Notes: generated by a model not told the origin, from the letters alone. 64,000 nt of DNA from an uncultured Gammaproteobacteria bacterium (GCA_947085345.1 CAMTWC010000016.1:5657-69656); one strand, 5' to 3'. Positions 3,373 through 58,709 are shown, counted from the stretch's first letter. Made by a program: numbers and translations.

Positions 3373-3499
3373 CGGGGCGGCTCGAAGATCGGCAAATGAA
3401 AAGTTTCCAAGTATAGCGCCGCGTGACAGGCGTTTTCACCTGGCAATGACCGGGTTTTTCTGGAGCGAGGCCGGGCTTTTGCCTTATCCTTGCGCCCCT

Positions 3500-4150
3500 A
3501 TGCAACAGCTGCTTCTCGATATCCGCCCGCCCGCCCGGCCCGAACTCGCCCGCTTCGTGGCGGGGCGCAATGTCGAGCTGATGGCGCAGCTTGCGGCCAT
3601 GCTCGACAGCAGGGCGGCCGAGCGCATGGTCTACGTGTGGGGCGCGCCGGGCAGCGGCAAGAGTTACCTGCTGGCGGCCTGGGGTCATGCCTGCCAGACG
3701 CGCGGCATGACGGTCGACTTCAGCGGGCAGCAGGCGGCGCAGGCGGTGATCGCGGATCAGGTGGAAACCTGGACCGAAGCACAGCAGCACGCCGGCTTTG
3801 CCGCGTTCAACCGGGTGCGCGAGGCGGGCGGGCTGTGGCTGGCGGCGGGCAGCGCGGCGCCGGCCGATCTGCCGCTGATGCCGGAATTGCAGACCCGGCT
3901 GGGCTGGGGGCTGGTGTTCCAGCTGCACGGCCTGGACGACGCCGAGAAGCGCGCCGCATTGAGCCAGCACGCCGAAACCCTGGGTTTTCGGCTGGAGCCC
4001 CAGGTGGCGGACTATCTGTTGAACCACACCGCGCGCGACATGCAGAGCCTGCTGCGGGTGCTGGAGGCGCTCGACCGCTTCAGCCTGGAAACGCGGCGTC
4101 CGATCACGCTGCCGCTGCTGCGGCAGTTGCTGGCGGGCGCCAGACCCTGA
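3500..4150 (+). CDS. hda: DnaA regulatory inactivator Hda
   Basis: Starts MQQLLLDI (clamp-binding-like), F-V-A-G-R-N, Walker A WGAPGSGKSYLL, ELQTRLGWG, RDMQSL; start set at ATG 3500. Confidence 0.9.
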   Translation: MQQLLLDIRPPARPELARFVAGRNVELMAQLAAMLDSRAAERMVYVWGAPGSGKSYLLAAWGHACQTRGMTVDFSGQQAAQAVIADQVETWTEAQQHAGFAAFNRVREAGGLWLAAGSAAPADLPLMPELQTRLGWGLVFQLHGLDDAEKRAALSQHAETLGFRLEPQVADYLLNHTARDMQSLLRVLEALDRFSLETRRPITLPLLRQLLAGARP

Positions 4151-50622: not shown

Positions 50623-50676
50623 TTTGGTAGAACAACGGGAAAAGCGGCGCATTGTCGACCGCAAGAACCGCAAATG

Positions 50677-50773
50677 TGCAGCTAGGGTTCCGGTCTCGTT
50701 CGAGATGTCTGGTCCGAGAGCTGCCGGCACCGCCGAAGGCGGGGCTCCACGGAGGGACAAAAGCCCGGGAGAG
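50677..50773 (+). ncRNA. Guanidine-I (ykkC-yxkD) riboswitch
   Basis: P1 GCAGCT/AGCTGC, CTAGGGTTCCG, TCTGGTCCGAGAG, CACGGAGGGACAAAAGCCCGGGAG are hallmark segments; upstream of guanidine transport and catabolism genes. Confidence 0.95.
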
Positions 50774-54274: not shown

Positions 54275-54934
54275 ATGAGCACCTTCAACCTTGTCGAAAG
54301 CCCTTTTGATCCCAAGCAGGCCATCGTCGATGCCGTTGTCAACGCCGGCGACCCGTGGATCCACGAAATCAAGAAGGGCCAGATCTTCCGCATCCTCGAC
54401 CTCGAAGGCAACCAGGCGGTCGACACGCTGTTCTACAACGCCCGCGCCCCCGAGGAACGCTACAGCGCCGCCGACACCGTGCGCGCGCAGGGTGCGCTCT
54501 ATCTCACCGCCGGCACCCAGCTGATGTCGACCGAGGGCAGGGCGATGCTGACGATTACCGCCGACACCTGCGGCCGCCACGACACGCTCGGCGGCGCCTG
54601 CTCGTGCGAGAGCAACGCCGTGCGCTACGCGCTCGACAAGCGGCCGATGCATTCCTGCCGTGACAGCTTCCTGCATGCGCTCGCGCACTACGACGGCGGG
54701 CTCACCAAGCGCGACATCACCAGCAACATCAACTTCTTCATGAACGTGCCGGTGACGCGTGAGGGCGGCCTGACCTTCGCCGACGGCGTGTCGGCGCCCG
54801 GCAAATATGTGGAAATGCGCGCCGAGATGGACGTGCTGTGCCTGATCTCCAACTGCCCTCAGCTCAACAATCCGTGCAACGCCTACAACCCGACGCCGGT
54901 CCGGGTGCTGATCTGGGACGCGCCCAAACAATAA
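54275..54934 (+). CDS. cgdB: Carboxyguanidine deiminase subunit (urea carboxylase-associated protein, DUF1989)
   Basis: [55 protein letters not shown]. Confidence 0.85.
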
Positions 54935-54941
54935 AACCTGA

Positions 54942-54985
54942 CGGCGGGACGCCCCGCCGCGGAGACTGCACGCGGGACGACCCGC
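54942..54985 (+). ncRNA. Guanidine-II (mini-ykkC)-like riboswitch internal to the operon
   Basis: CGGCGGG-ACGC-CCCGCCG (54942-54959), 12-nt linker, GCGGG-ACGA-CCCGC (54972-54985), immediately followed by the SD AAGGA and ATG 54999; first loop ACGC deviates from ACGR. Confidence 0.7.
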
Positions 54986-54998
54986 AAGGAAGCAAAAC

Positions 54999-57900
54999 AT
55001 GTTCGACAAGGTTCTCATCGCCAACCGCGGCGCCATCGCCTGCCGCATCATCCGCACCCTGCGCACGATGGGGGTGAAATCGGTCGCCGTCTATTCCGAG
55101 GCCGACCGTCATTCGCTGCACGTGCGCCTCGCCGACGAGGCTGTCGAGATCGGACCGGCGCCGGCGGCGCAGAGCTACCTGCGCGCCGAGAAGATTCTCG
55201 AAGCGGCCAAGGCCACCGGCGCCCAGGCGATCCATCCGGGCTACGGCTTCCTTTCCGAGAACCCCGGCTTCGCTGAGGACTGCGCGGCAGCGGGCATCGC
55301 CTTCATCGGGCCGAGTCCTGCGCAGATGCGCGCCTTCGGCCTCAAGCACACCGCGCGCGACCTGGCCGAGCACAACAAGGTGCCGCTGCTGCCGGGTTCC
55401 GGCCTGCTCGCGGACGCCGGCCACGCCCAGGCCGAGGCCGCGCGCATCGGCTACCCGGTGATGCTGAAGAGCACCGCCGGCGGCGGCGGCATCGGCATGC
55501 GCTTGATCTGGAGCGCCGACGAACTGGTCGAAGCCTTCCAGTCGGTCGAGCGGCTGGCCCGCGCCAACTTCAAGGAGGCCGGCATTTTTCTCGAAAAATA
55601 CGTCGAGCGCGCGCGCCATATCGAAGTGCAGATCTTCGGCGACGGCCGCGGCCACGTGGTCGCGCTGGGCGAGCGCGATTGCTCGGTGCAGCGTCGCAAC
55701 CAGAAAGTGATCGAGGAAACCCCCGCACCCGGCCTCACCGACATGCAACGTGAGCAATTGCGCGCTACCGCGGTGCGCCTGGGCGAGGCCGTCGGCTACC
55801 GCTCCGCCGGCACCGTCGAATTCGTGTACGACACCTTGAGCGGCGCGTTCTATTTCCTGGAAGTGAACACGCGCCTGCAGGTCGAGCACGGCGTCACCGA
55901 GGAAGTCACCGGCGTCGATCTGGTCGAGTGGATGGTGAAGGAGGCTGCCGGCGAGCTGGACTTGTCCGGCTTCAGGGCCGAACCCAAGGGCGCGTCCATG
56001 CAGGTGCGCCTCTACGCCGAAGACCCGGGCAAGGATTTCCAGCCCGCCGCCGGCGTATTGACCGAAGTGGTGTTTCCGGCCGACGCCCGCATCGAAACCT
56101 GGGTCGAGCGCGGTTCCGACGTGTCGCCGTTCTACGACCCCATGGTCGCCAAGATCATCGTCAAGGGCAGCGACCGTGCCGAGGCGCTGGCCAAGATGCA
56201 GCGGGTGCTCGCGCACACACGCGTCGCCGGCATCGAGACCAACCTCGGTTACCTCGCCCAGATCGTGCGCGACGCGGTGTTCAGGGAGGGGCGCCAGACC
56301 ACGCGCTACCTCAACGCCTTCCACTACCGCCCGGCGACCCTCGACGTCATCGAGCCCGGCGTGCAGAGCAGCATCCAGGACTGGCCGGGACGCACCGGTT
56401 ACTGGGACGTCGGCGTGCCGCCCTCCGGTCCGATGGATGCGCTGGCGCTGCGCCTCGCCAATAAACTGGCGGGCAATGAAGAGGGTGCGGCTGGACTGGA
56501 ACTGACGGTGGCCGGCCCCACGCTGCGCTTCAACTGCGACAGCGTGATCGCGCTGGCCGGCGCCGATATGGGCGCCGAACTCGAGGGACAGCCGCTCGCC
56601 AACTGGGCCGCGCATGCGGTGAAGGCCGGCTCGCTGCTGAAACTGGGTGCCATCAGGGACACCGGCTGTCGCGCCTACCTCGCGGTGCGCGGCGGCTTCG
56701 ACGTGCCGGATTATCTCGGCAGCAAAGCCACCTTCACCCTCGGCCAGTTCGGCGGCCATGCCGGGCGCACGTTGCGGGCCGGCGACGTGCTGCATATCCC
56801 GCCCGTCACCCCGGCGGACGCCGGGGTCCAGTTGAACGCACTGGATACCGGCATTCACCCGCAAGGGGTAGGCCATGGTTGTAAAGCCGCTGAAGCGGCA
56901 ACAACCATGCACCGCCGGTATGACGATCCTCCCGCCTACACCCACGCCTGGGAAATCGGCGTGCTGTACGGCCCGCACGGCGCACCGGACTTCTTTACCG
57001 ACGCCGACATCGACATGTTCTTTTCCACCGACTGGGAAGTGCATTACAACTCCAGCCGCACCGGCGTACGGTTAATCGGCCCGCGCCCGCAGTGGGCGCG
57101 CAAGGACGGTGGCGAGGCCGGCCTGCATCCGTCCAACATCCACGACAACGCCTACGCCATCGGCGCGGTCGACTTCACCGGCGACATGCCGGTGATCCTC
57201 GGCCCGGACGGCCCCAGCCTCGGCGGCTTCGTCTGCCCCGCCACCATCGTGCAGGCCGAGCTGTGGAAGATGGGCCAGCTGCGCCCCGGTGACACCGTAC
57301 GTTTCAAGCGCCTGAGCCAGACGCAGGCTGAGCAGATGGAAGCGGAGCAGGATGCCGCCATCGCGACCCTGTCATTCCGGGCTGCGACCCGGAATCCAGA
57401 AATTAGACTGGACCCCGGCACAGGCCGGAATGACGACGAACTCGCCGAACCCGTCCTCCACCGCATCCCCGAAACCGACAACCCCGTCGCCGTGGCCTAC
57501 CGCCGCGCCGGCGACAAATATCTGCTGGTCGAATATGGCCCGCTGGTGCTCGACCTTAACCTGCGCTTCCGCGTGCACGCGCTGATGACCCGGCTGCAGG
57601 CCGATTCCGTGCCGGGCATCCTCGACCTTACCCCCGGCATTCGTTCGCTGCAGGTGCACTACGACTCGCGCGTGCTGCCGCTGCAGAAGCTGATGGAGTT
57701 GCTGCTGGCGGCGGAAAAGGCGCTGCCCGCCATCGAGGACATGCAGGTGCCCACCCGCATCGTACATATCCCGCTGTCGTGGGACGATGCCGCCACGCGG
57801 CTGGCGATCGAGAAATACATGCAGTCGGTGCGCAAGGACGCGCCCTGGTGCCCGAGCAACATCGAGTTCATCCGCCGCATCAACGGACTGGACAGCATCG

Positions 57901-58709
57901 ACGAGGTGAAGCGCATCGTCTTCGACGCCAGCTACCTGGTGCTGGGTTTGGGCGACGTCTATCTAGGCGCGCCGGTGGCGACGCCGGTCGACCCGCGCCA
58001 TCGTCTCGTCACCACCAAATACAACCCCGCCCGCACCTGGACCCCGGAAAACGCCGTCGGCATCGGCGGCGCCTACCTATGCGTCTACGGCATGGAAGGC
58101 CCCGGCGGCTACCAGTTTGTCGGCCGCACCCTGCAGATGTGGAACCGCTGGCGAGCAACCCGAGACTTCACCGGCGGCAAGCCGTGGCTGCTGCGTTTCT
58201 TCGACCAGGTGCGCTTCTTCCCGGTGAGCGAGGCCGAGCTTTTGAAAATCCGCGAGGACTTCCCGCTCGGGCGCTACCAATTGAAGGTGGAGGAAACCAC
58301 CTTCAGCCTGCGCGACTACAACACCTTCCTCGCCGACAACGCCGAGTCCATCGCCGCCTTCAAGGCGCGGCAACAGGCCTCGTTCGACGCCGAGCGCGAA
58401 CGCTGGCGCGCGAGCGGCCAGGCCGAATACGCCAGCGACATCACCGTCGCCGAAGCCTCCACCGACAGCGAACTCGACCTGCCCGAAAACGGCCGCGCCG
58501 TTGCCAGCCACGTCGCCGGCAATGTCTGGAAGGTGGAAGTCGAAGAGGGCGCCGAAGTGAAGCAGGGCGATCCGCTCGTCATCGTCGAATCGATGAAGAT
58601 GGAGTTCGCCGTGCTGGCGCCGTGCGATGGCCGCATCCACAAGGTGTTCTGCCGCGAAGGCGGGCAGGTGAGCGCCGGGCAGGATTTGCTGGTGTTGGTG
58701 AGCGAGTGA
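54999..58709 (+). CDS. uca: Biotin-dependent urea/guanidine carboxylase
   Basis: BC domain (LIANRGAIA, HPGYGFLSEN, ERDCSVQRRNQK, EVNTRLQVEH), CT domain (HDNAYAIG, GPSLGGFVCP, KYNPARTWTP, GPGGYQ), biotin site ESMKME. Confidence 0.96.
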   Translation: MFDKVLIANRGAIACRIIRTLRTMGVKSVAVYSEADRHSLHVRLADEAVEIGPAPAAQSYLRAEKILEAAKATGAQAIHPGYGFLSENPGFAEDCAAAGIAFIGPSPAQMRAFGLKHTARDLAEHNKVPLLPGSGLLADAGHAQAEAARIGYPVMLKSTAGGGGIGMRLIWSADELVEAFQSVERLARANFKEAGIFLEKYVERARHIEVQIFGDGRGHVVALGERDCSVQRRNQKVIEETPAPGLTDMQREQLRATAVRLGEAVGYRSAGTVEFVYDTLSGAFYFLEVNTRLQVEHGVTEEVTGVDLVEWMVKEAAGELDLSGFRAEPKGASMQVRLYAEDPGKDFQPAAGVLTEVVFPADARIETWVERGSDVSPFYDPMVAKIIVKGSDRAEALAKMQRVLAHTRVAGIETNLGYLAQIVRDAVFREGRQTTRYLNAFHYRPATLDVIEPGVQSSIQDWPGRTGYWDVGVPPSGPMDALALRLANKLAGNEEGAAGLELTVAGPTLRFNCDSVIALAGADMGAELEGQPLANWAAHAVKAGSLLKLGAIRDTGCRAYLAVRGGFDVPDYLGSKATFTLGQFGGHAGRTLRAGDVLHIPPVTPADAGVQLNALDTGIHPQGVGHGCKAAEAATTMHRRYDDPPAYTHAWEIGVLYGPHGAPDFFTDADIDMFFSTDWEVHYNSSRTGVRLIGPRPQWARKDGGEAGLHPSNIHDNAYAIGAVDFTGDMPVILGPDGPSLGGFVCPATIVQAELWKMGQLRPGDTVRFKRLSQTQAEQMEAEQDAAIATLSFRAATRNPEIRLDPGTGRNDDELAEPVLHRIPETDNPVAVAYRRAGDKYLLVEYGPLVLDLNLRFRVHALMTRLQADSVPGILDLTPGIRSLQVHYDSRVLPLQKLMELLLAAEKALPAIEDMQVPTRIVHIPLSWDDAATRLAIEKYMQSVRKDAPWCPSNIEFIRRINGLDSIDEVKRIVFDASYLVLGLGDVYLGAPVATPVDPRHRLVTTKYNPARTWTPENAVGIGGAYLCVYGMEGPGGYQFVGRTLQMWNRWRATRDFTGGKPWLLRFFDQVRFFPVSEAELLKIREDFPLGRYQLKVEETTFSLRDYNTFLADNAESIAAFKARQQASFDAERERWRASGQAEYASDITVAEASTDSELDLPENGRAVASHVAGNVWKVEVEEGAEVKQGDPLVIVESMKMEFAVLAPCDGRIHKVFCREGGQVSAGQDLLVLVSE
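56804..56925. repeat. Palindromic REP-like element read in frame inside uca, with a nested hairpin
   Basis: CGTCA...TGACG ends; CCCCGGC-GGAC-GCCGGGG, TCCAG/CTGGA, TACCGGC...GCCGGTA; right loop holds CATGGTTGT...GCCGC-TGAA-GCGGC...ACAACCATG. Confidence 0.8.
57371..57434. repeat. Second palindromic REP-like element read in frame inside uca
   Basis: Perfect 10-bp terminal IR GTCATTCCGG/CCGGAATGAC; ATTCCGGG-CTGCGA-CCCGGAAT, TCCAG/CTGGA, CCGGC-ACAG-GCCGG. Confidence 0.85.

What the first reader, a model, noticed from the sequence alone, without database searches (positions are those of the whole stretch)
56804..57434. Two palindromic repeat elements translated in frame within the carboxylase gene
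Seen: both share the layout GTCA-hairpin-TCCAG-spacer-CTGGA-hairpin-TGAC, yet enter in different reading frames without stops. They encode VTPADAGVQLNALDTGIHPQGVGHGCKAAEAATTMHRRYD (about residues 603-642) and SFRAATRNPEIRLDPGTGRND (about 792-812), both in apparent linker regions of the carboxyltransferase part. The first has a further hairpin nested in its right loop. Known: Rickettsia palindromic elements insert in frame into proteins, and GTCATTCC...GGAATGAC repeats resemble Neisseria dRS3-type elements. Inference: selfish repeats creating new peptide segments in a functional enzyme, with two independent hits in one gene.
Basis: partly seen in the sequence, partly recalled or inferred. Interest (0 to 1): 0.72.

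Follow-up and report, generated by a model that had tools for sequence, protein, structure and literature searches.

The report
Translated REP repeats in carboxylase linkers
Two copies of a small hairpin-forming selfish DNA repeat sit in frame in two floppy linkers of a Thiobacillus guanidine/urea carboxylase and appear to be read as extra peptide; this behaviour is already described for such repeats, though these two linkers have been colonised repeatedly in related species.

Summary
Window 56805-56924 and 57371-57434 are two copies, in opposite orientation, of a CGTC-tagged REP dimer. This Thiobacillus genome holds about 34 loci (48 hairpin units) of the family. Only these two lie inside a coding region.

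They sit in frame (aa 603-642 and 792-812) in the two hypervariable linkers of the carboxyltransferase part of a riboswitch-controlled urea/guanidine carboxylase. The first element is composite: a 57-nt copy of a second, genus-wide hairpin repeat (family B) is nested in its right hairpin loop.

Same-genus orthologues lacking the elements are 35-40 aa shorter. Other Thiobacillus genomes share one or both elements at the same junctions. The gene is under purifying selection (dN/dS 0.10-0.15).

Among 58 orthologues, 14 have an expanded linker 1 and 14 an expanded linker 2. Nearly all expansions are palindromic repeats, from at least four families.

In-frame CGTC/GTAG REPs, including double hits in one gene, are in print (Di Nocera et al. 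2013). That paper equates CGTC-1 with Neisseria dRS3 and Rickettsia RPE-6. This is therefore a new member of a known kind. The modest additions are the recurrent "slot" use, the nested composite, and slower-than-neutral change of parts of the elements. Translation and enzyme activity were not tested.

The parts
54999..58709 (+). Host gene: biotin-dependent urea/guanidine carboxylase, 1236 aa (biotin carboxylase, carboxyltransferase subdomains A-B and C-D, biotinyl carrier)
   Evidence: ORF; Pfam domains; NCBIfam TIGR02712 urea carboxylase, 1921 bits against a cut-off of 1304; 3VA7 homologue; dN/dS 0.10-0.15
56805..56924 (+). Element 1: composite repeat, a family A REP dimer (63 nt) carrying a nested family B copy (57 nt). 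Read in frame as aa 603-642 in the linker between CT subdomains A and B
   Evidence: (nhmmer E = 9e-11)
56805..56831 (+). Element 1, left REP unit: (C)GTC tag, 8-bp stem ACCCCGGC/GCCGGGGT, 4-nt loop, CCA tail
   Evidence: With the preceding C and the next bases (34 nt in all) it is 100% identical to the intergenic copy C18:58670-58703
56832..56840 (+). Element 1 spacer (TTGAACGCA)
   Evidence: Spacers are 8-14 nt in other copies
56841..56855 (+). Element 1, right REP unit, 5' half (CTGGA-TACCGGC-ATT)
   Evidence: L044 has the uninterrupted unit CTGGATACCGGCATCCGCCGGTATGAC
56856..56912 (+). Family B copy (57 nt, two hairpins) nested in the loop of the right REP unit; encodes about 19 aa (HPQGVGHGCKAAEAATTMH)
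   Evidence: nhmmer E = 8.5e-18; fold; about 22 copies in the genome; present in 36 of 41 genus genomes
56913..56924 (+). Element 1, right REP unit, 3' half (C-GCCGGTA-TGAC; CGTC tag on the complementary strand)
57371..57434 (-). Element 2: family A REP dimer in the opposite orientation. Read in frame on the + strand as aa 792-812, in the linker between CT_A_B and CT_C_D. Units are 57371-57399 and 57408-57434; spacer is 57400-57407
   Evidence: I8; nhmmer minus strand, E = 1e-6

Best explanation
Two copies of a small non-autonomous palindromic repeat have landed, in separate events, in the two hypervariable inter-subdomain linkers of the carboxyltransferase part of a Thiobacillus urea/guanidine carboxylase.

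The repeat is a dimer of CGTC-tagged REP hairpins. It belongs to the same superfamily as Neisseria dRS3 and Rickettsia RPE-6.

The net length change kept the reading frame, and the frame used has no stop. The elements are therefore carried along as 21 and 40 extra linker residues, and the enzyme stays under normal purifying selection.

The first element also carries a 57-nt copy of a second, genus-wide hairpin repeat inside one hairpin loop. This A::B composite form also exists elsewhere in this genome and in other genomes.

Shown here:
- membership of the repeat family;
- insertion relative to orthologues;
- linker location;
- intact frame;
- purifying selection on the host gene.

Inferred:
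- that the peptides are actually made;
- that they are tolerated rather than useful;
- that the elements keep exchanging sequence with other genomic copies by gene conversion.

How the family moves is unknown, and no dedicated transposase was found.
For: Family: profile hits at both sites. There are 48 hairpin units in this genome against 0 for the reversed-pattern control. Other genus genomes hold 0-46 units.

Location of other copies: all other loci lie outside coding sequence by codon-usage scoring and ORF inspection.

Insertion: G004, G008, G001, G016 and G006 orthologues (91-92% aa identity) lack both segments. G002 has both at the same junctions. L044 and L056 carry the plain 63-nt dimer in linker 1. 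L044 and L017 carry a longer form in linker 2.

Linkers: the sites fall between conserved blocks where the 44-sequence alignment has no consensus. They align to gapped, unconserved stretches of the yeast enzyme 3VA7. Element 2 lies between Pfam CT_A_B (ends at 770) and CT_C_D (starts at 834). The AlphaFold model has pLDDT below 50 at both inserts.

Selection: dN/dS is 0.10-0.15 for carriers, against 0.09-0.12 in comparisons with or between non-carriers.

Context: the gene sits in an intact guanidine-I-riboswitch operon.

Literature: PMC3733652 describes CGTC and GTAG REPs inside ORFs. Dimers there encode 20-30 aa, some ORFs carry two inserts, and CGTC REPs lack a dedicated transposase.
Against: The AlphaFold model is mediocre (mean pLDDT 67.6). 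It also scores conserved core segments low, so the low confidence at the inserts is weak evidence of exposure.

The insertions are not clean. In carriers the native linker codons are partly replaced, and no target-site duplication is visible.

Parts of the elements change much more slowly than neutral sites. Family B differs at 1 of 57 positions between G000 and G002, and the left arm of element 2 at 0 of 35, against 24% at four-fold sites. Pure 'tolerated junk' does not predict this.

The gene tree of the Thiobacillus core is unresolved, so gains, losses and recombination cannot be counted.
Confidence: 0.88

Rival explanations
1. The embedded hairpins are kept because they do something: at the mRNA level (pausing ribosomes between subdomains, or a processing or stability site inside a riboswitch-controlled operon) or at the DNA level. 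The peptides would be a by-product.
For: Family B differs at 1 of 57 nt between G000 and G002, with no synonymous change. The flanking family A part differs at 16 of 63, and four-fold sites of the gene at 24%. The left arm of element 2 is identical over 35 nt between G000 and G002, and over its first 31 nt it is identical in L017 and one base different in L044. Hairpin stems change by paired switches (CC..GG to TA..TA) that keep pairing. The folds are very stable.
Against: Most congeners do without the elements. Different lineages hold unrelated repeat families at the same two places. The stem variants are exactly those circulating among intergenic copies. One arm is 34/34 identical to an intergenic copy. 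The same A::B composite, with the same B variant, occurs in another species. Gene conversion from a conserved pool therefore explains both the conservation and the paired switches.
Confidence: 0.12
2. The two linkers are 'slots'. A resident hairpin repeat is itself the landing site, or recombination partner, for the next repeat. That would explain why the same two places are occupied again and again and why repeats nest in each other.
For: 14 of 58 orthologues have an expanded linker 1 and 14 an expanded linker 2, from at least four families. Lineages often carry the same family in both linkers (A+A in G000, G002, L044 and L048; the C6TTT..AAAG6 family in both in L026, L041 and L046). Family B sits in the same loop position of family A in the Uca gene, in C37 and in G009. 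It is also nested in GTAG REPs in G003 and in other B copies in C22. Both coding copies of family A in this genome are in this one gene.
Against: A permissive linker plus a selection filter gives the same pattern without any targeting. Family A junctions differ by 6-24 nt between lineages. Only 2 of 16 full family B copies have a flanking stem, against 10% of random sites. No intermediate with remnants of one family flanking another was identified with confidence.
Confidence: 0.3
3. Artefact or decay: the elements are mis-assemblies of a metagenome bin, or the gene is a decaying pseudogene that merely remains open.
For: The genome is a 124-contig draft, and repeats are classic mis-assembly sites.
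Against: The same insertions at the same junctions occur in independent assemblies (G002, L044, L056, L017). The ORF is full length with all domains. dN/dS is 0.10-0.15. The operon is intact.
Confidence: 0.02

Closest known systems
Intragenic CGTC-tagged REPs, family CGTC-1 (Di Nocera, De Gregorio and Rocco 2013, BMC Genomics 14:522, PMC3733652). That paper equates CGTC-1 with Neisseria dRS3 and Rickettsia conorii RPE-6
   Same: The units have a CGTC (or TGTC) tag, an 8-bp stem, a 4-nt loop and a CCA tail. They form inverted dimers. Copies are mostly intergenic, with a few in frame inside known proteins. Dimers encode 20-30 aa, double inserts in one ORF are described, and no dedicated transposase is known.
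   Different: Host and gene are new: Thiobacillus and urea/guanidine carboxylase, neither mentioned in that paper's main text. The stem core is CCGG rather than the CCC/GGG of dRS3. One unit starts AC rather than AT. One insert is a nested composite with a second repeat family. The same two linkers are occupied by several families across related species.
Rickettsia palindromic elements (RPE-1 and others; recalled from Ogata et al. 2000 and cited within PMC3733652)
   Same: Selfish palindromic repeats inserted in frame in functional genes and tolerated in surface or linker regions.
   Different: RPE-1 is longer (about 100-150 bp) and unrelated in sequence. In Rickettsia many genes are hit, whereas here only one gene in the genome carries family A in frame.
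Neisseria dRS3 repeats / NIMEs
   Same: Hairpin of the form GTCATTCC(C/G)..N..(G/C)GGAATCCAG. The copy in the Parasulfuritortus orthologue (L088) reads ATTCCCGCCTTCGCGGGAAT, which fits the dRS3 consensus exactly.
   Different: In this window the sixth base is G rather than C (ATTCCGG..CCGGAAT). Neisseria copies cluster in intergenic mosaic arrays (PMC3733652). From my own recollection they also serve as prophage attachment sites. Neither was seen or tested here.
REPINs served by RAYT transposases (recalled: Bertels and Rainey 2011; discussed in PMC3733652)
   Same: Two inverted REP hairpins with a short spacer that can fold into one long hairpin.
   Different: The tag is CGTC, not GTAG. The one full-length RAYT-like gene in the genome (C41:5797-6534) is not flanked by family A. 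A second, 51-aa fragment hit was not examined.

Membership tests
CGTC-tagged REP, family CGTC-1 (PMC3733652) | Terminal CGTC tag (TGTC and CCTC variants allowed) | tested here: met
   Element 1 has cCGTCACC at the left and TCGTCATA on the complement at the right. Element 2 has TGTCATTC at the left and GTCGTCATT on the complement at the right. Genomic copies start CGTCAC/CGTCAT.
CGTC-tagged REP, family CGTC-1 (PMC3733652) | 8-bp stem, usually starting AT; 4-nt loop; short CCA tail | tested here: met
   Genomic consensus is CGTC-A(C/T)(C/T)CCGGC-GAAA-GCCGG(G/A)(G/A)T-CCA-G. Element 1 left unit is ACCCCGGC-GGAC-GCCGGGGT-CCA. Deviations: some stems start AC, and the left unit of element 2 has a 6-nt loop.
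CGTC-tagged REP, family CGTC-1 (PMC3733652) | Multi-copy, dispersed, mostly intergenic, often as inverted dimers | tested here: met
   34 loci and 48 units, against 0 for the control pattern. Most units occur in inverted pairs with 8-14 nt spacers. Apart from the two copies in this gene, all loci are non-coding.
CGTC-tagged REP, family CGTC-1 (PMC3733652) | No dedicated flanking tyrosine transposase | tested here: met
   PF01797 gives one full-length hit (C41) and one 51-aa fragment hit (C64:15962-16084). The flanks of the C41 gene show no family A. The fragment hit lies 1.3 kb from a family A copy (C64:14594-14662) and was not looked into. Other transposase classes were not screened.
Neisseria dRS3 | Consensus ATTCCC-N8-GGGAAT | tested here: not met
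   In the window the hairpins read ATTCCGG..CCGGAAT or ACCCCGG..CCGGGGT. An exact dRS3-type unit occurs only in a relative's orthologue (L088). This is a related variant, not dRS3 proper.
Rickettsia palindromic elements (RPE) | In-frame insertion of a palindromic repeat into conserved protein genes | tested here: met
   This is a likeness in behaviour only. Sequence relatedness to RPE-6 rests on the published classification and was not tested here.
REPIN / RAYT system | GTAG-tagged REP doublets with a cognate RAYT gene flanked by the same REPs | tested here: not met
   The tag is CGTC. The full-length RAYT-like gene at C41 lacks family A flanks.
MITE (classical) | Terminal inverted repeats plus target-site duplication | tested here: inconclusive
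   Terminal inverted repeats are present (GTCATTCCGG...CCGGAATGAC, I8). No duplication is visible when filled and empty sites are compared, but the native linker is too diverged to be sure.
Urea carboxylase (TIGR02712) / guanidine carboxylase | Full-length match over the cut-off, with operon partners UAAP1/UAAP2 and allophanate hydrolase behind a guanidine-I riboswitch | tested here: met
   Substrate preference (guanidine or urea) is not testable with these tools.

The most novel reading that the evidence does not exclude
The two carboxylase linkers are repeat 'slots'. Once a hairpin repeat is resident, it acts as landing pad or recombination partner for further repeats. Unrelated families would then replace and nest in one another at the same codons across Thiobacillus and its relatives. 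The embedded copies would be kept close to the genomic pool by gene conversion, which would also explain their slower-than-neutral change. If so, linker length and sequence of a conserved enzyme are driven by the repeat content of each genome rather than by point mutation.
Probability: 0.3. Interest if true: 0.55.

Novelty: new member of a known kind. Interest (0 to 1): 0.35.

Why it matters
The case shows how selfish hairpin repeats can lengthen and rewrite the interdomain linkers of a conserved metabolic enzyme without breaking it. It offers an unusually dense natural series: 58 orthologues, at least four repeat families, and the same two sites. That series could be used to ask whether such sites are merely permissive or actively targeted.

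For annotation, it warns that odd 20-40 aa stretches in Thiobacillus proteins may be repeat-derived. Examples are ..VTPADAGVQ.., ..SFRRKPES.., ..PPFAKGG.. and ..GEGWGEG...

It does not change what is known about the principle, which is in print.

Tried and rejected
1. Rfam search of 56500-57700 at E up to 10 found only chance hits. Neither element is a described RNA family.
2. I looked for a cognate RAYT. One full-length RAYT-like gene exists, but family A does not flank it.
3. A gene tree meant to count gains and losses left the Thiobacillus core unresolved (bootstrap mostly below 70). G000 is equally distant from carriers and non-carriers in every segment, so no count is given.
4. I tested whether family B generally inserts into hairpin loops. 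Only 2 of 16 copies have flanking stems, so this is not supported as a general rule.
5. AlphaFold on the carboxyltransferase part gave a mediocre model. It was used only as weak support.
7. Candidate 'in-frame' copies elsewhere (C24, C57, C77, C37, C18, C93, C8) turned out to lie in spurious high-GC open frames, or upstream of real starts.

Full report
**What is there.** The window lies in a 2.86-Mb, 64% G+C draft genome. Titles of related records place it in Thiobacillus. ORF 54999-58709 (+) encodes a 1236-aa biotin carboxylase. It contains biotin-carboxylase, CT_A_B, CT_C_D and biotinyl domains and matches NCBIfam 'urea carboxylase' far above its cut-off. The gene follows a guanidine-I riboswitch (50671-50773), an ABC transporter and the UAAP1/UAAP2 pair, and it precedes allophanate hydrolase. 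From the literature as I recall it, enzymes in this arrangement prefer guanidine. Substrate preference was not tested here.

**Check of the observation.** Both elements are present as described.
- Element 1 is 56805-56924 (120 nt, aa 603-642).
- Element 2 is 57371-57434 (64 nt, aa 792-812).
- Both fold far better than shuffled controls (z = -6.0 and -6.6).
- A profile built from twelve other genomic copies finds both in a whole-genome search (E = 9e-11 and 1e-6). It places them on opposite strands.

**The repeat family (A).** Intergenic copies read CGTC-A(C/T)(C/T)CCGGC-GAAA-GCCGG..T-CCAG, then 8-14 nt, then the inverted partner ending GAATGACG. This is a dimer of hairpin units, each with a CGTC tag, an 8-bp stem, a 4-nt loop and a CCA tail.
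- A pattern for one unit finds 48 units in this genome. The reversed control finds none.
- Forty other genomes of the genus hold 0 to 46 units.
- Non-carriers of the gene insertions (G004, G006, G008, G016) have 0-1 units.
- Such patchy abundance is what a mobile family shows.

**Only the carboxylase carries family A inside coding sequence.** Of 34 loci, only the two in this gene have strong codon-usage signal in one continuous frame on both flanks. Long open frames across other copies are spurious high-GC frames, or the copies lie upstream of the real start codons. Being stop-free is not remarkable in itself, because 24-64% of intergenic copies are open in any given frame.

**Insertion relative to orthologues.** Same-genus orthologues at 91-92% identity (G001, G004, G006, G008, G016) are 1198-1201 aa long and lack both segments. 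G002 has both at the same junctions. Among 80 further loci:
- L044 and L056 carry a plain 63-nt dimer in linker 1.
- L044 and L017 carry a longer, three-unit form in linker 2.
- L056 lacks element 2.
- L017 has a different repeat in linker 1.

The two elements are therefore separate events. The assembly is also confirmed by independent genomes. In carriers, part of the native linker is replaced, and no target duplication is visible.

**The nested repeat (B).** Window 56856-56912 is a 57-nt two-hairpin repeat.
- It has about 22 copies in this genome, and stems covary between copies.
- It occurs in 36 of 41 genus genomes.
- It sits in the loop of the right unit of element 1.
- The same composite, with B at the same loop position, occurs upstream of a FemAB-like gene on C37 and in another species (G009). 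The G009 copy also carries the same CCATGG stem variant of B as the carboxylase copy. The composite therefore appears to be a propagating subfamily.
- B does not generally sit in hairpin loops: only 2 of 16 copies do.
- In G003, however, B is nested in GTAG-type REPs, and on C22 it is nested in other B copies.

**Location in the protein.** Element 1 lies between carboxyltransferase subdomains A and B. Homologues such as PxpC and allophanate hydrolase subunit 2 match in two stretches that end at about residue 601 and resume after the insert. Element 2 lies between Pfam CT_A_B (ends at 770) and CT_C_D (starts at 834). In a 44-sequence alignment these are the only long stretches without consensus. 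They align to gapped, unconserved parts of yeast urea carboxylase 3VA7. The AlphaFold model gives pLDDT below 50 at both inserts. It is mediocre overall (mean 67.6), so this is weak support.

**Selection.** For the carboxyltransferase part without the linkers, dN/dS is 0.10-0.15 between carriers. It is 0.09-0.12 in comparisons that involve non-carriers. The host gene is under ordinary purifying selection.

**How the embedded copies evolve.** I compared G000 with G002.
- The family A part of element 1 differs at 16 of 63 positions. This is about the 24% seen at four-fold degenerate sites.
- Family B differs at 1 of 57 positions, and the left arm of element 2 at 0 of 35.
- At the four-fold-site rate, 1 of 57 has a probability of about 4e-6 (my arithmetic).
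- Stems switch between CC..GG and TA..TA forms on both sides at once.
- The variants are those seen in intergenic copies, and one arm is 34/34 identical to an intergenic copy on C18.

I take gene conversion with the genomic pool as the likeliest cause. A function of the hairpins is the rival. The data do not decide between them.

**A recurrent pattern.** In 58 aligned orthologues, 14 have an expanded linker 1 and 14 an expanded linker 2. Nearly all expansions are palindromic repeats.
- Family A occurs in at least three clades, with different junctions and stem variants (G000 group, L048/L043, L088).
- A C6TTTN3AAAG6 family translates as PPF.KGG. Its host genomes hold 4-115 hairpin sites each, against 0 in G000 and G008.
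- A GTAG-tagged REP has 5-11 units in its hosts.
- A GGGGAGGGTTGGGGAGAGGG family translates as GEGWGEG. It has 1-9 copies under a strict pattern, which is weaker support.
- Several genomes carry the same family in both linkers.

Either these linkers are simply the most permissive places, or resident repeats attract the next ones. I put the second reading at about 0.3.

**Comparison with what is known.** Di Nocera et al. 2013 (PMC3733652) define GTAG- and CGTC-tagged REP superfamilies and equate CGTC-1 with Neisseria dRS3 and Rickettsia RPE-6. They report REPs inside known ORFs: dimers encoding 20-30 aa, double inserts in one ORF, and clusters encoding 43-82 aa. They note that CGTC REPs lack a dedicated transposase, and they suggest that the inserts lie in flexible linkers. 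Family A meets the CGTC-1 features, with minor deviations. It is not dRS3 proper, because the stem core is CCGG rather than CCC/GGG. It is not a RAYT-served REPIN either. Earlier notes of this scan list several comparable in-frame REP cases and one 'slot' idea. I used them as leads only.

**Verdict.** The finding is real and correctly interpreted, but it is a new member of a known kind. The parts worth keeping are the dense comparative series at two fixed linkers, the nested A::B composite, and the unexplained conservation of parts of the embedded repeats. Translation and enzyme activity remain untested.

Noticed in passing
window 50671-50773 (+), with genes to 60513: A guanidine-I riboswitch (Rfam RF00442, 89.9 bits) heads an operon of ABC transporter, UAAP1/UAAP2, the carboxylase and allophanate hydrolase. 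The 'urea carboxylase' is therefore probably a guanidine carboxylase.
   Followed up: partly
G000 contig C37:67200-67321 (outside the window): A second family A::B composite, with B at the same hairpin-loop position, lies just upstream of the likely start of a FemAB-like gene. A third composite, carrying the same B variant, is in another species (L099 = G009:C99:8040-8320).
   Followed up: partly
G000 contigs C22:2407-2521 and C22:29484-29598; L100, L101 (G003): Family B copies are nested inside other B copies and inside GTAG-type REPs (TGTAGGAGC[B]CGGCGCCCTCGCCGCGAT). The two C22 arrays are near-identical, which suggests a larger duplicated unit.
   Followed up: no
G000 contig C46:2376-2442: A family A dimer sits immediately upstream of an ORF that starts MAAKD (GGAGTAAATT-ATG). 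This resembles a groES-groEL spacer, that is, a repeat inside an operon.
   Followed up: no
G000 contig C41:5797-6534: A RAYT-like Y1 transposase gene (PF01797, 47 bits) has no family A or B repeats at its flanks. Short direct repeats (TAATCGTGACCC(T/C)ATTTCC) lie just downstream of it.
   Followed up: partly
L017 and L024, linker 1 (locus coordinates about 3480-3590): A GTAG-tagged REP dimer (GTAGGAGCGGCCTCCAGGCCGCGATC ... inverted copy) is translated in frame as VGAASRPRSS..DRGLEAAPTG, in the same linker that holds family A in the window.
   Followed up: partly
L026/L041, L046, L095, L028, L043 (both linkers): A palindromic element of about 100 nt built on CCCCCCTTTGAAAAAGGGGGG...CCCCCCTTTTGCAAAGGGGGG is translated in frame as PPFEKGG..PPFAKGG. 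It is sometimes present in both linkers of one gene. Host genomes hold up to 115 hairpin sites.
   Followed up: partly
window 54864-57044 (-) and other long antisense ORFs: Long open frames antisense to the carboxylase (for example 726 aa) are high-GC artefacts with arginine/alanine-rich junk translation. They are not genes.
   Followed up: partly
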